Source: the human T2T-CHM13v2.0 reference genome, Homo sapiens. Taken from it: a stretch of 64,000 nt of DNA. The stretch is taken from the NCBI RefSeq assembly GCF_009914755.1, contig NC_060930.1; one strand, given 5' to 3'. Positions 16,389 through 47,737 of this stretch are shown piece by piece (the first letter of the stretch is position 1; each line of letters begins with the position of its first letter). The notes under the pieces are model-generated. The model did no database searches and was not told the DNA's origin. It worked only from the letters and a program-made list of their open reading frames with translations. Both the position numbers and the translations under genes were made by a program.

Positions 16389-16798
16389 CAGCCGTGTCAT
16401 TTAATGACAGGGTTACGTTCTGAGAAGTGTGTCATGAGTCAATTTTGTCATCGTGCAAACATCATAGAGTGTACTTTCACAAACCTGGATAGTAGAGCTT
16501 ACCAGGCTACATGGCAGGGCCTATTGCTCCCAGGCTACAAACCTGTACAGCATGGTACTGTACTGAATACTGTGAGGGAATTGTAACACAATTGTATTTG
16601 TGTATTTAAACATGTCTAAACATATAAAAAAGGTAATGTGTTGAGCTAGGACATTCTGACAGCTACAATGTCACGTCACTGACAGGCTACCATGTCACTA
16701 GGCAACAGGAATTTTTCAGCTCTGTTATAGTTTTATGGGACTATTGTCATATATGTGGTTTATTGTTGACTGAAACATCATTATGCAGCACATGACTG
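16389..16798 (-). mobile_element. Tigger3a (MER7A-type TcMar MITE)
   Basis: TA|cagccgtgtcatttaatgac...cattatgcagcacatgactg|TA, with the Tigger3 internal motif cctattgctcccaggctacaaacctgtacagcatg. Confidence 0.88.
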
Positions 16799-17427
16799 TA
16801 TATAGGGAATTATATTTGATAACATTTTGTATCTTTACATCTATATGAAGTACATTGGAATTTTTTAAAAATAATATTTTTGTTTCATTTTTATGTTAGT
16901 CTTATGCTGGCCTTACAAAACCAAGTTGGGCAGTGATACCAACTTCTTTATCTTCTGAAAATATTTATGTTAGATAAGTGTTATTTATTCCTTGAAACTT
17001 TGCCAGAATTTACTACTGAAAGCATTTTACCCTGGAGTTTTCTTTTAGGAAAGATATTGGATAATTTAATTATATATAATTATACATTATTAATTGTCTT
17101 CATATAATTAATTATATATAGTTGTATATAGTATGTATTATATATATTTGGGCTTATGGGTTGCTGAATTAAATATATATTTGTTATTAAATACATATAT
17201 TGTAACTTTGTTTTTCTTGTGTCAATTTTGGTTAGTGTATTTTTTAAGAAAATTGTCAATTTTATGTAATTGTTGCATATTTTGCTGTAATATTGTATTG
17301 TTACCCCCTTTAAAGTCTATTGGTTCTGTGTCATTCCTGACATTAGTGATTTGTGTCCTTTCTCTCTTTTTCTTATACATTCCAGCTAGGACTTTTTAAA
17401 TTTTATTGATTCTTTTTTCAAGAAACT

Positions 17428-17568
17428 AGATGGCATAGTCTAGTATACACCTAGGGTATATGGTAGATCCTATTGCTCCTATGTTACAAACCTGTACAGT
17501 ACGTTACTATGCTGAATACTGTAGGCAATTATAACATATGCCCTAGGTGTATAGTAGACTATGCCATC
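17428..17568. other. Locally templated insertion: inverted copy of 19985-20093 plus a fold-back arm
   Basis: 17428-17536 is the reverse complement of 19985-20093 (106/109). 17537-17568 is a forward copy of 20061-20092 (30/32). Direct repeat tcaagaaactag lies at 17418-17429 and 17567-17578. Confidence 0.9.
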
Positions 17569-17988
17569 AAGAAACTAGCTATTAGATTTTTGTCTATCTG
17601 TTTTATCTTTCATCGATTTTTGTTTTTTGCTATTTTCTTCCTTCTACATTGAGTCTTTAGACCATGGTTGAATTTAAGTCCAAGATTAAATTACATATTT
17701 TCTGTAATTTTTTTTATTTACAGAAATAAAATTTTTTTCTTCTATTTCTATTTTTTCTATTTCTTTCTATTTCTATTTTTTTTATCTTCATTAGTCTTTT
17801 ATTCCTGCCATGTTTTAGTTTATTTGAATATCTTTTCAAATTCCATTTTTATTTATCTAATGTATTTTGGCTAAATCTCTTTTTGTGTGTGTGTTTTCTG
17901 TAGAAATTTTATTATACATACCAGCCCTTTCAGAGTTTATTTAGAGTTAATATTATGCCATTTCACATAAAAAGTAGAAAAATTTTGG

Positions 17989-18130: not shown

Positions 18131-18969
18131 CAGTAGACAAATTGCAATAATATAAATGATCCTCCACTGACCCTTATGTTGTAATTTTTGTATGTATTGT
18201 ACATATATACATAAAAAAATCCCAACAGATAATAAAATACTGTTTGTTTCAACTAGTTATATGTATTTTAAAGAACTTCAAAAGGAAAAATAATCTTTTG
18301 TATTTACCCAGAAATTTACCATTTCTGTTGCTATTTCTTCATTCCTAAAGATCCACGGTCCTCTCTAGTATTATTTTCATTCAGTGTGGAGAACTTGCAT
18401 TAGCAATCTTATATTCAGCTCTCCTAGTGATGAATTATCTTACTTTTCCTTTATCTAAAAATGCGTTTATTTTGCTTGCATTTCTGAAGAACGTTTTCAC
18501 TAGGTATAGAGTTTGGGGTTGACAATTCTTTTCTTTCAGCCTGTAAAGAAGTTGTCTGCCATCAGGCCTCCATGATTTCTGATGAGAAATCTTCAGTATT
18601 TCCACCCATTCCTGTCTGTGTAATGAGGCATATATTTCTAGCTGTTTTCAATTATTTTTTCTTTATATTTGGTTTTCACCAGTTTAACTGTGATGTGTTT
18701 AGGTGTGATTTTCTTTGGGCTTGTGTATTGCTGAGCTTCTTGAATCTGTACATTTATGGATTTGATTAAATGTGGAAAGCTTTCCAGCATTGTATCTTCA
18801 AACAATTTTCCTTCTCAATCTCTCCTGTCCTTCTGGTACTCCAACCACATTATTTTTGATCTTCGGAAATTTTCCTACAGGTCCCTGAGGTTCTATTCAC
18901 TTATTCTTTATTCTCCACTTTCATTCTCTGTTCTTCATATTAGATTATTTCTATCGAGCTATTTCCAAG

Positions 18970-19783: not shown

Positions 19784-19808
19784 CCTAGTGAGTTTTTCAT
19801 TTTAAATG

Positions 19809-20183
19809 CAGTAACGTGCTGCATTACAATGTTTTGGTCAACAACAGAATGTATATATGACACTGGTCTCAAGATTATAATGGAGCTGAAAAGTTTCTAT
19901 TACCTAGTGATGGCATAGCCATTGTAATGTCATAGCACAATACATTACCTTTTCTATGTTTAGACACACAAATACATAGCATTGTGTTATAATTGCCTAC
20001 AGTATTCAGCATAGTAACATACTGTACAGGTTTGTAACATAGGAGCAATAGGATCTACCATATACCCTAGGTGTATTGTAGACTATGCCATCTGGGTTTG
20101 TGTAAGTATGATGTTCCCACAATGATGAAATTGTCGAATGACACATTTTTCAGAATGTATCCCCATCAAGTGACACGTGACTG
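19809..20183 (+). mobile_element. Tigger3a (MER7A-type TcMar MITE), donor of the 17.4-kb insertion
   Basis: cagtaacgtgctgcattacaatgttttggtcaac...aagattataatggagctgaaaa...cagaatgtatccccatcaagtgacacgtgactg|TA. Confidence 0.88.
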
Positions 20184-21173
20184 TACTGTATATTTCACTT
20201 CCCAGCAATTTAATTTTTTTATTGTTTATTCTCTATTGAGAATTTTTGTTTTCATTCATTTGAAGAGTGTTCTTACTTATAAAGCATAGTCGTAAGAGCT
20301 GCTTAAACTTTCTTAAACTAGCTAGATCATCAGGTAACTTGAGAGGTTTTTGGTTTTTTTGTCATGAGAATTGGTCTTTTTTTGGTCTACTGAGTAATTT
20401 TGGATGGTATGGATATTGTGAATCTCTGTTGAATACAGTCTGTTAGAACATTCCTAATATACTTATTTTAGCAAGCAATCAGGCCACTTAAATTCAGACT
20501 GTAAGTTGTGTGTCATCTTCTATGAGAGGTAGTTCAAATCTCAGTTGAGTTTTTAAATTCTTGGCTTTATCGGGTTTGTGTCCCTCCTATGCATTTGCAA
20601 TTCAGGGGTTAGAATAAGACTTGTGCAGACAGCTCAAATCTCTGTTTGGCTTCCAAAGCATTTGTGATCTTTATTTGGGACTGTCTCATGTGTGCTTATT
20701 TCAGGAATTATGCTGATAGTTTTGTGAGGTTCATTCACAAATTAAAGGATTCCCTTCGCTTTCTGTTTTATCTGTGGGATTCTCCTTAAACTCTCAGGCT
20801 TGCAGGAGTCTTTCTTTTTGGTTTCTTTTGCCAGAGAAACAGGATTTATCTCAGAGTTTATCTGCTTCTGCAGCTGCCATTTCCTCACCATTTTGCAACT
20901 GAGGTCTACCCTTGAGATCATATTGCACAAGAAAGAAGCAACATGGAAAACTCATCACTGTGCAGTTCACTTTTTCAACTTTTGCCTCTCTTCTATGCTT
21001 GCTTTTGAGAGGTGGTTGTTTTCTTAAATGTATTTTATTCAGTTTTTAGTTGTGATTAGAATGAGGAATGGGCTGCCATGATTGAACTAGAATGTTTATT
21101 AATTTTTTTTGCCAGAAAAAATACTGATTATATGTCAAGGTATAGAACCTGTCTTTTAAAATTAACCAAACCA

Positions 21174-32769: not shown

Positions 32770-32881
32770 TTATATATATGTGTGTATATATATGTATGTA
32801 TGTATATATATGTATATTTATATATGTAAGTATATGCATATATATTTATATCCAAAGACCTCTGACACAGGTGCGTGCATG

Positions 32882-32922
<41 letters not shown>
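32770..32922. repeat. TA/TG low-complexity tract and (AC)19 microsatellite
   Basis: (AC)19 at 32885-32922, with a TATG-type tract upstream. Confidence 0.9.

Positions 32923-47688: not shown

Positions 47689-47737
<49 letters not shown>
47461..47737. repeat. Compound (TA)/(TG) alternating purine-pyrimidine microsatellite
   Basis: About 275 bp of tatatgtg-type units ending in (TG)n(TA)n; accounts for the YICV/HTHI-rich pseudo-ORFs. Confidence 0.95.

What the first reader, a model, noticed from the sequence alone, without database searches (positions are those of the whole stretch)
17418..17578. Pseudo-MITE made by serial template switching: inverted copy of a neighbouring Tigger3a plus a fold-back arm, with a 12-bp target duplication
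Seen in sequence: (1) 17428-17536 is the reverse complement of 19985-20093 at 106/109. It shares that copy's private variants (ggatctacc, tataccctagg, gtaacatagg, agactatgccatc), whereas the nearer Tigger3a at 16389-16798 is far more divergent, so the donor is one specific copy 2.5 kb downstream. (2) 17537-17568 re-copies 20061-20092 forward, creating 32-bp terminal inverted repeats (17429-17460 vs 17537-17568, 30/32). (3) tcaagaaactag is duplicated at 17418-17429 and 17567-17578, and removing the insert restores continuous host-L1 text. (4) All three junctions carry microhomology: AG (CTAG against the remembered Tigger3a consensus), CA and TC. Established: Tigger elements make TA duplications and use their own terminal TIRs, both absent here, and L1 TPRT leaves poly(A), also absent. 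Inference: a FoSTeS/MMBIR- or Pol-theta-type event jumped to the opposite strand 2.5 kb away, copied 109 nt, folded back for 32 nt and returned about 10-12 nt behind the exit point. The product has TIR-plus-TSD architecture without any transposase, and the low divergence implies it post-dates Tigger activity. Repeat annotation would hide it as unremarkable Tigger3 fragments.
Basis: partly seen in the sequence, partly recalled or inferred. Interest (0 to 1): 0.85.

Follow-up and report, generated by a model that had tools for sequence, protein, structure and literature searches.

The report
Polymerase-copied fold-back insert, not a transposon
A short piece of an old transposon copy lying 2.5 kb away was copied backwards, folded on itself and written into an ancient L1 by a DNA repair or replication slip, which makes it look like a miniature transposon although it is an ordinary, already known kind of human mutation.

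Summary
17428-17536 is the reverse complement of 19985-20093 (106/109). 17537-17568 repeats 20061-20092 forward (30/32), which gives 32-bp inverted ends. An exact 12-mer flanks the insert, and each of the three junctions has 2 nt of microhomology. In the whole T2T genome the neighbour is the best match (97%; next best 87%), and no other site has this end layout. The insert shares 12 of the donor's 13 private variants. The host is an old minus-strand L1 that reads through once the insert is removed. It is therefore a single non-transposase templated insertion that post-dates Tigger activity (about 1.6% change per lineage), not a MITE family. The route is not settled. Multi-template germline templated insertions and small inverted duplications with microhomology are already described in print, so this is a new member of a known kind. 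No primate or pangenome data could be reached, so the date and fixation are untested. Interest is low to moderate.

The parts
17418..17429 (.). Left copy of the 12-bp flanking direct repeat. The last 2 nt (AG) could equally be donor-derived.
   Evidence: Exact 12-mer; junction analysis.
17428..17536 (+). Segment 1: a 109-nt inverted copy of 19985-20093 (the plus strand of the donor served as template).
   Evidence: 106/109. It is the best genome-wide match at 97% against a next best of 87%. It shares 12 of the donor's 13 private variants.
17535..17568 (+). Segment 2: the fold-back arm, a forward copy of 20061-20092 (equally, the reverse complement of the insert's own left arm 17429-17460). It includes the shared CA at its start and the shared TC at its end.
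   Evidence: 30/32 to the donor and 30/32 to the left arm. The donor and the insert's own left arm give identical match patterns as templates.
17567..17578 (.). Right copy of the 12-bp flanking direct repeat. The first 2 nt (TC) could equally be donor-derived.
19985..20093 (-). Donor segment inside the downstream Tigger3-like copy. Both arms of the insert start at 20092/20093, about 90 nt inside the element's end.
19803..20185 (-). The whole donor element, an old dispersed DNA-transposon copy. Its terminus CAGTCACGTG is preceded by TA at 20185-20184. The family name Tigger3a is recalled and was not tested.
   Evidence: Inverted matches to the upstream copy (I2-I7). Pile-up of 28 family loci ends at 20185. 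Sequence read.
18435..18814 (-). ORF1 remnant of the host L1 (minus strand). It shows that the insert sits in an old L1.
   Evidence: Pfam Transposase_22 (E 3.6e-9) and Tnp_22_dsRBD (E 9.6e-5). Collinear L1 relatives across the empty site.

Best explanation
This is a single, non-transposase templated insertion. A free 3' DNA end at a break or stalled fork inside an old minus-strand L1 (at 17429/17430) was extended by a polymerase on the plus strand of the inverted Tigger3-like copy 2.45 kb downstream. Pairing at the start was only 2 nt (AG, with imperfect pairing behind it). The product is 137 nt of foreign sequence: 109 nt copied in inverted orientation plus a 32-nt arm in the opposite orientation. 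It is bounded by an 8-12 bp duplication of the target. The confidence given (0.85) is for this class of explanation.

The route I think most likely (about 45% overall) has four steps:
1. The same 3' end left the donor after 109 nt.
2. It snapped back on its own new single-stranded tail at CA/TG.
3. It copied back 32 nt until it met the duplex boundary where the tail began. This would explain why both arms end at the same base.
4. It re-paired through TC 10-12 nt behind its exit point and resumed, which duplicated the target.

Shown: donor identity, uniqueness, target duplication, microhomologies and the continuity of the host L1. Inferred: the enzyme, the order of the steps, and whether one or two DNA ends did the copying. 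The element has no sign of mobility or function. It can fold into a 32-bp-stem hairpin, and it lies in an intron of CASC15.
For: - Donor identity: 106/109 and 30/32 identities. The neighbour is the best genome match at 97% against at most 87% for all other scored copies, in both directions (40 of 1030 and 40 of 1826 candidates scored). The insert carries 12 of the donor's 13 private variants, and at the 13th both arms keep the family state, which indicates a later change in the donor.
- Uniqueness: only this site in 3.1 Gb matches the two-arm pattern at spacing 60-130, and none matches at spacing 30-60.
- Not the element's own ends: the copied ends lie about 90 nt inside the parent element, whose own ends are TA-flanked CAG...CTG termini.
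- Target site: an exact 12-mer flanks the insert, and 11 of 14 L1 relatives read through the empty site.
- Junctions: 2 nt of microhomology at all three junctions, joint chance 0.004-0.007.
- Independent history: four independent substitutions since the event (donor 1, insert 3) rule out an assembly chimera.
- Precedent: germline multi-template insertions that copy in reverse and then forward, with microhomology, are documented (PMC8421209, section 10 read). So are 277-311 polymorphic inverted duplications of median 284 bp, mostly with 1-15 bp of microhomology (PMC12350158, passages).
Against: - No ancestral empty allele could be inspected: there are no primate or pangenome data in the tools, and searches for stray copies found none. 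The insertion is therefore inferred from L1 relatives that are only 60-78% identical.
- Microhomology of 2 nt per junction is weak.
- The genome searches score only the best 40 candidates, so a better donor is unlikely but not strictly excluded.
- For the serial route specifically: stopping of the snap-back at the tail's origin is assumed, not shown. The left edge of the duplication looks like an L1 endonuclease site, which the replicative route does not predict. A two-ended route explains the same product with fewer switches.
- The template distance (2.45 kb) is far beyond the 100 bp used to define MMB-TIs in PMC8421209.
Confidence: 0.85

Rival explanations
1. Two-ended route, the same class of event but a different path. 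A staggered cut leaves two 12-nt 3' overhangs; an L1 ORF2p endonuclease-type cut is the best candidate. Each overhang is extended on the same plus-strand DNA template, starting at its 3' terminus near 20093. The top end primes with AG and makes 109 nt; the bottom end primes with GA and makes about 34 nt. The two new 3' ends then anneal at CA/TG and are filled in. The target duplication comes from the stagger, and the identical outer ends come from the end of the template. (This lies inside the class given 0.85 above; 0.3 is its share, against about 0.45 for the serial route.)
For: - The geometry reproduces the product exactly (reasoned).
- The two primers sit on the donor one base apart (20093-20092 and 20092-20091), which this route explains directly.
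- The left edge of the duplication reads TC/AAGA. It fits YY/RRRR and 4 of 6 positions of the L1 endonuclease hexamer, which is expected at 1.9-2.8% of sites given the three allowed edges.
- A duplication of 8-12 bp is in the usual L1 range (recalled).
- ORF2p has DNA-directed synthesis and template jumping (PMC10830420, passages).
Against: - There is no retrotransposed sequence and no poly(A) or poly(T) at either end.
- The motif match is relaxed, with two departures from the consensus.
- A single-stranded plus-strand template ending at about 20093 is assumed without any evidence.
- The published cases accompany an L1 insertion, which is absent here.
Confidence: 0.3
2. RNA-templated insertion by L1 ORF2p reverse transcriptase (a twin- or dual-priming variant, or a class 1 or class 2 templated sequence insertion). 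Both nicked strands prime on plus-sense CASC15 intron RNA from the donor region.
For: - Both segments are complementary to the plus strand, which is the sense strand of CASC15 according to the hub's annotation.
- A target duplication of at least 5 bp and an endonuclease-like site are present (class definitions in PMC5110952).
- Dual priming by two RNAs has been proposed (PMC2837659, passages).
- ORF2p can be primed by hairpins and can jump templates (PMC10830420).
Against: - There is no poly(A) tract or signal.
- The two segments overlap completely on the template instead of being adjacent with a deletion, as twin priming predicts.
- A source only 2.45 kb from the target is not expected for RNA-mediated events, which draw on transcripts from anywhere (inference).
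- Primer-to-template pairing is only 2 nt.
Confidence: 0.06
3. Two separate events. First, the 109-nt inverted copy is inserted with the target duplication. Later, a short-range template switch (four-point model) adds the 32-nt arm.
For: [quoted passage not shown] The arm's divergence (1/32) cannot be told apart from that of segment 1 (2/109).
Against: The arm would have to be placed exactly between segment 1 and the right copy of the duplication, and to end exactly at the first base of segment 1. That is two coincidences. At position 20077 both arms keep the ancestral state, which is uninformative.
Confidence: 0.07
4. A genuine MITE, or a transposase-mediated insertion of a Tigger-derived element, possibly homogenised later by gene conversion from the neighbour.
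For: It has inverted ends plus a flanking direct repeat and derives from a DNA transposon. The single strand folds at -39.1 kcal/mol, z = -9.3.
Against: - It is the only copy in the genome.
- The flanking repeat is 12 bp rather than TA.
- The ends lie about 90 nt inside the parent element, not at its CAG...CTG termini.
- Gene conversion cannot create the second arm.
- 12 of 13 private variants are shared with a donor that is 11.9% diverged from the family majority.
Confidence: 0.01
5. An assembly artefact in the T2T assembly.
For: None specific. Only one haplotype was available.
Against: The copy and the donor differ at 3 of 109 positions, and the arm differs at 2 of 32. These are spread over both lineages when polarised against the family. 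A chimeric join would be identical to its source.
Confidence: 0.01

Closest known systems
MMBIR-type templated insertions (MMB-TI), including 'complex' multi-template germline events (Osia et al. 2021, PMC8421209; section 10 and passages read)
   Same: The insert is an inverted copy of a nearby template with microhomology or microhomeology at its junctions. Several successive templates are used, including reverse-then-forward copying. The events are present as germline or evolutionary variants.
   Different: Those events were defined with templates within 100 bp and inserts no longer than a sequencing read. Here the template is 2.45 kb away, the insert is 137 nt, the second template is probably the new strand itself, and the target is duplicated by 8-12 bp.
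Small polymorphic inverted duplications in human long-read data (Nature 2025, PMC12350158; passages read)
   Same: The size class matches (median 284 bp). The copy is inserted in inverted orientation near its source. Most have 1-15 bp of microhomology, and a replicative origin is proposed.
   Different: This one is old (about 1.6% change per lineage) and probably fixed. It carries an extra fold-back arm that gives it inverted ends. I did not see whether any of the published calls have that layout; the supplements were not examined.
Short-range template switch mutations, four-point model (Loytynoja and Goldman 2017, PMC5453318; passages read)
   Same: A reverse-complement copy made by a nascent strand that switches template and returns. 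The process can create hairpins and inverted repeats.
   Different: The model covers one switch-and-return at short range, and its authors explicitly leave out long-range and multi-round switching. This event needs three junctions and a 2.45-kb jump.
L1 twin priming or dual priming, and local DNA-templated insertions at ORF2p breaks (PMC2837659, PMC11702581, PMC10830420; passages read)
   Same: The insert is bounded by a target duplication of L1-like length, holds an inverted and a direct part, sits at an endonuclease-like cut site, and both parts are complementary to one template strand.
   Different: There is no L1 or other retrotransposed sequence and no poly(A). The two parts overlap fully on the template. 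The source is local genomic sequence.
MITEs and non-autonomous Tigger (pogo-type) elements
   Same: Small size, inverted ends, a flanking direct repeat, hairpin-forming, and built from Tigger-family sequence.
   Different: It is a single copy. Its ends are internal sequence rather than the transposase-bound termini, and its flanking duplication is 12 bp instead of TA. It resembles a MITE in form only.

Membership tests
MITE / Tigger-type DNA transposon insertion | Several dispersed copies sharing the same ends | tested here: not met
   Only this site matches the two-arm pattern in 3.1 Gb (spacing 60-130; spacing 30-60, no hits). No other genome hit covers both arms (40 of 1030 candidates scored).
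MITE / Tigger-type DNA transposon insertion | TA target-site duplication | tested here: not met
   The flanking repeat is a 12-mer with an 8-nt unambiguous core. By contrast, the upstream full copy is flanked TA...TA and the donor terminus is preceded by TA.
MITE / Tigger-type DNA transposon insertion | Ends are the element's own terminal inverted repeats | tested here: not met
   The insert's ends correspond to donor position 20092/20093, about 90 nt inside the terminus at 20183-20185.
MMBIR / FoSTeS-type templated insertion | The insert is a copy (often inverted) of nearby sequence | tested here: met
   106/109 to the inverted neighbour 2.45 kb away, which is the best match in the genome. 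This is farther than the 100-bp search radius of PMC8421209.
MMBIR / FoSTeS-type templated insertion | Microhomology at the switch junctions | tested here: met
   AG, CA and TC, 2 nt each; joint chance 0.004-0.007.
MMBIR / FoSTeS-type templated insertion | Ancestral allele lacks the insert (a single mutational event) | not testable with these tools
   No primate or other human genomes are held. Stray-copy searches found none. The only indirect support is that 11 of 14 L1 relatives read through the empty site.
Four-point short-range template switch mutation | One switch-and-return, with the template within the local neighbourhood | tested here: not met
   There are three junctions and a 2.45-kb jump. 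The model's authors exclude long-range and multi-round events (PMC5453318).
L1 ORF2p-mediated insertion (TPRT, class 1 templated sequence insertion) | Target-site duplication of at least 5 bp | tested here: met
   8-12 bp. The definition is in PMC5110952.
L1 ORF2p-mediated insertion (TPRT, class 1 templated sequence insertion) | Poly(A) tail and an upstream polyadenylation signal | tested here: not met
   There is no A or T tract at either end of the insert.
L1 ORF2p-mediated insertion (TPRT, class 1 templated sequence insertion) | Insertion at the endonuclease site 5'-TTTT/A-3' | tested here: inconclusive
   One of the three allowed left edges reads TC/AAGA on the top strand (bottom strand TCTT/GA). 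This is a relaxed match with two transitions, expected at 1.9-2.8% of sites.
L1 twin priming | The inverted and direct parts come from adjacent, non-overlapping stretches of one RNA, with an internal deletion | tested here: not met
   The direct part (20061-20092) lies wholly inside the inverted part (19985-20093). The definition is in PMC2837659.
microRNA precursor families (mir-578, MIR6149, MIR6217) | Score above the Rfam gathering threshold, and sequence similarity to members | tested here: not met
   Scores are 20.8-33.8 bits against cut-offs of 98-110. The true mir-578 locus shares no sequence with the insert.

The most novel reading that the evidence does not exclude
The insert may be an 'orphan' scar of an L1 ORF2p-type staggered cut (TC/AAGA edge, 8-12 bp duplication). 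In this reading both 3' overhangs were extended from the 3' terminus of one local plus-strand template, either single-stranded DNA or nascent CASC15 intron RNA, with no poly(A) and no L1 sequence. It would then be natural evidence for the so far hypothetical 'dual priming' and for DNA-templated writing at ORF2p breaks in the germline. It would also be the first recognised example of a hidden class of single-copy structures with inverted ends and a target duplication, which repeat annotation files away as old transposon fragments.
Probability: 0.15. Interest if true: 0.55.

Novelty: new member of a known kind. Interest (0 to 1): 0.25.

Why it matters
Its importance is modest. It is a clean, fully resolved fossil of a multi-step templated insertion: every junction, the donor and the post-event substitutions can be read.

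It shows that polymerase template switching can by itself produce the inverted-ends-plus-target-duplication layout that programs and readers take as the mark of a transposon. That is a caution for MITE finders and for repeat annotation, which would label the insert as an old Tigger fragment.

Two details could inform the mechanism if they recur in a genome-wide set. First, both arms start at the same donor base. Second, the cut site looks like an L1 endonuclease site. A survey could ask whether such local insertions come from replication errors or from L1-endonuclease breaks repaired without retrotransposition.

The event also created a 32-bp-stem hairpin in a lncRNA intron. There is no evidence that this hairpin is used.

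Tried and rejected
- MITE family: two genome-wide pattern scans and two BLAST-type scans found no second copy with both arms.
- Better donor elsewhere: none. The next best copy is 87% identical, against 97% for the neighbour.
- microRNA: the sub-threshold Rfam hits to mir-578, MIR6149 (a plant family) and MIR6217 reflect the long stem only. The real mir-578 locus shares no sequence with the insert.
- Independent human or primate copies as contaminants in the prokaryote and viral contig collections: 0 hits for a 32-mer of the right flank. The empty-site, dating and polymorphism tests therefore remain undone.
As a substitute I scanned the 48 other 3-kb loci already held (150 kb). The only local pair of at least 90% identity and 35 nt was two Alu pieces. 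In the 64-kb window, the finding is the only real pair at 92% or above.
- Which template made the arm: I tried to decide between the donor and the insert's own left arm from shared variants. The one variant the arms share against the donor is the ancestral family state, so it is uninformative.
- Gene conversion of an older insert: rejected because it cannot make the second arm or the 12-bp duplication.
- One line (junction 1, second parent) is a base out of register through my coordinate slip.
- Literature on MITE birth by template switching: one search (7 papers held the terms, one listed, none on this point by title or abstract start). A second search on inverted duplication plus template switching plus target-site duplication gave no description of this layout. 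I saw listings only for most of those papers.
Full report
**What is there**

- 17428-17536 equals the reverse complement of 19985-20093 at 106 of 109 positions. Similarity ends abruptly on both sides.
- 17537-17568 equals 20061-20092 in forward orientation at 30 of 32. The insert therefore ends in 32-bp inverted repeats (17429-17460 against 17537-17568, 30 of 32).
- The 12-mer TCAAGAAACTAG stands at 17418-17429 and again at 17567-17578.
- Each junction has a 2-nt overlap that either parent could have supplied: AG, CA and TC. In one search the second-parent line for junction 1 is one base out of register; one search shows the right register.
- The chance of at least 2 nt at all three junctions is 0.004 with equal bases and 0.007 with local composition.
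- The 8 inner bases of the duplication, which no donor homology explains, have a chance of 1.5e-5 to 4e-5.
- As single-stranded DNA the 161-nt stretch folds at -39.1 kcal/mol. Shuffles average -13.9, z = -9.3, and 0 of 200 shuffles fold as well.

**The donor is that one neighbour**

A search of the window's own 3.1-Gb genome with 17400-17600 returned the locus itself, then the neighbour at 97%, then other copies at 87% or less (40 of 1030 candidates scored). The reciprocal search from the donor gave the same order (40 of 1826 scored).

I aligned the insert, the donor and 28 other family copies taken. The donor departs from the family majority at 13 of the 109 copied positions (11.9%), and the insert carries the donor's state at 12 of those 13. 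At the 13th position (20077) both arms of the insert keep the family base, so the donor changed there after the copy was made. The nearer upstream copy (16389-16798) is only 81% identical over the 70 nt that align.

Polarised in this way, four substitutions have occurred since the event:
- one in the donor;
- two in the 109-nt segment;
- one in the arm.

That is 4 in 250 sites, or 1.6% per lineage (Poisson 95% interval 0.44-4.1%). Using recalled primate divergence figures, this points to an event tens of millions of years younger than the transposon family, roughly of great-ape to catarrhine age. The estimate is an inference that no tool here could test.

**Not a transposon family**
- A degenerate pattern of the two 14-nt ends at spacing 60-130 hits only this site in the genome (the forward and reverse hits are the same place; the backwards-read control gave 0). 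A shorter-arm pattern at spacing 30-60 hits nothing.
- The parent family does have the expected pogo-type layout. The upstream copy runs from CAG... to ...CTG between TA and TA, and the donor's terminus at about 20183 is preceded by TA.
- The copied piece starts about 90 nt inside that terminus. The insert's ends are therefore not transposase ends, and its flanking repeat is not TA.
No tool here names repeat families.

**The host**
- Pfam finds L1 ORF1 domains on the minus strand at 18638-18814 (Transposase_22, E 3.6e-9) and 18435-18647 (dsRBD-like, E 9.6e-5). The other 8 reading frames tested gave nothing.
- The flank's relatives in the genome are old, at 60-81% identity.
- With the insert and one 12-mer removed (built inside a script), alignments run across the junction in 11 of 14 related loci and gain score. 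One locus stops 10 nt short and two do not align. With the insert in place, no alignment passes the junction.
- In the multiple alignment the relatives carry the 12-mer's counterpart once.

**How it most likely arose**

The product is 109 nt complementary to the donor's plus strand, followed by 32 nt of the opposite sense, between target duplications and with microhomology at each join. That is what microhomology-primed copying by a polymerase gives, and no transposase or canonical retrotransposition is needed. I put about 0.85 on this class of explanation. Within it, two routes fit equally well on the sequence.

It then snaps back on its own tail at CA/TG (5 of 7 bases pair there) and copies 32 nt. 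Finally it re-pairs by TC 10-12 nt behind its exit.
- *Route B (about 30%).* A staggered cut leaves two 12-nt 3' overhangs. Each is extended on the same plus-strand template, and the two new ends anneal at CA/TG.

The two arms begin on the donor at the same place: the primers cover 20093-20092 and 20092-20091. In route A this needs the snap-back synthesis to stop where the new single-stranded tail meets duplex DNA. In route B it needs a template molecule that ends near 20093.

Variants cannot tell whether the arm was copied from the donor or from the new strand, because the one state the arms share against the donor is ancestral.

**L1 endonuclease**

Poly(A) is indeed absent, and twin priming in the strict sense is excluded because the direct part lies wholly inside the inverted part (definition in PMC2837659).

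But one of the three permitted left edges of the duplication reads TC/AAGA. This fits pyrimidine-pyrimidine/purine x4 and 4 of 6 positions of the endonuclease hexamer. Such a match at any of three adjacent positions is expected at 1.9% (local) to 2.8% (window) of sites in one orientation. The 8-12 bp duplication is also of L1 type.

Recent work supports the idea that L1-cut breaks can be repaired in this way:
- ORF2p has DNA-directed synthesis, template jumping and hairpin priming (PMC10830420, passages).

An L1-endonuclease cut repaired from a local DNA template is thus a live version of route B. A purely RNA-templated version (plus-sense CASC15 intron RNA, dual priming) is unlikely, at about 6%, given the absence of an A tail and a source only 2.45 kb away.

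**Comparison with what is known**
- Germline templated insertions linked to MMBIR number about 100 per person at 25 bp or more. These include 26-33 'complex' events per person that copy from several templates, for example reverse and then forward, with microhomology at most junctions (PMC8421209, section 10). Those were sought only within 100 bp of the insertion.
- Long-read data from 1,019 people list 277-311 inverted duplications with a median of 284 bp. Most have 1-15 bp of microhomology and are ascribed to replicative mechanisms (PMC12350158, passages).
- The four-point model of short template switches explicitly leaves out long-range and multi-round events (PMC5453318, passages).
- Templated sequence insertion polymorphisms are split into a class with target duplication, poly(A) and the endonuclease site, and a class with none of these (PMC5110952, passages). 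The present insert has the first feature, lacks the second and half-fits the third, so it belongs cleanly to neither class.
- I found no paper describing a single-copy MITE look-alike made in this way (searches; mostly listings seen, supplements not examined). The underlying process is nevertheless well described.

**Verdict**

The exact path is unproven, and the dismissal of L1 endonuclease was too quick. The insert is a new, unusually legible member of a known kind of mutation. It has no sign of mobility or function, and its Rfam microRNA hits are far below threshold and reflect hairpin shape only.

It is rare locally. It is the only real pair at 92% or above in the 64-kb window, and none like it occurs in 150 kb of other loci. 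A wider base-rate scan could not be run.

The decisive tests are the orthologous empty site in primates, human pangenome haplotypes, and a genome-wide survey of such local copies with their cut-site motifs.

Noticed in passing
window 16389-16798 (+) and about 19803-20185 (-): Two near full-length copies of the same old DNA-transposon family lie in inverted orientation 3 kb apart, 74-83% alike. They bracket the L1 stretch that received the insert. The upstream copy shows intact TA...TA flanks and CAG...CTG ends. I did not examine whether this inverted pair favoured template switching.
   Followed up: partly
window 18435-18814 (-): Recognisable L1 ORF1 remnants (Transposase_22 and the dsRBD-like domain) survive in an L1 whose genomic relatives are only 60-80% identical. 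The L1 subfamily was not determined.
   Followed up: partly
window 17430-17569 (+): Rfam gives sub-threshold hits to three microRNA precursor families: MIR6149 at 33.8 bits, mir-578 at 32.5 and MIR6217 at 20.8, against cut-offs of 98-110. They are driven by the long stem only. The true mir-578 locus on contig C4 shares no sequence with the insert.
   Followed up: yes
window 47699-47733 and 32879-32913: The only other self-matches at 92% or above in the window are (GT)n microsatellite runs.
   Followed up: yes
window 17692-17726 (-): A weak Rfam hit to the bacterial sRNA family ES036 (24.1 bits against a cut-off of 37.6, E 0.023) in T-rich L1 sequence. Almost certainly chance.
   Followed up: no
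window 20092-20095 and 17422-17429: Behind the 2-nt AG overlap at the first junction, the host end and the donor share further interrupted matches (7 of the last 11 bases). The family majority reads CTAG there, where the donor now reads CCAG. The pairing at the time of the event may have been longer than 2 nt, but this cannot be decided.
   Followed up: partly
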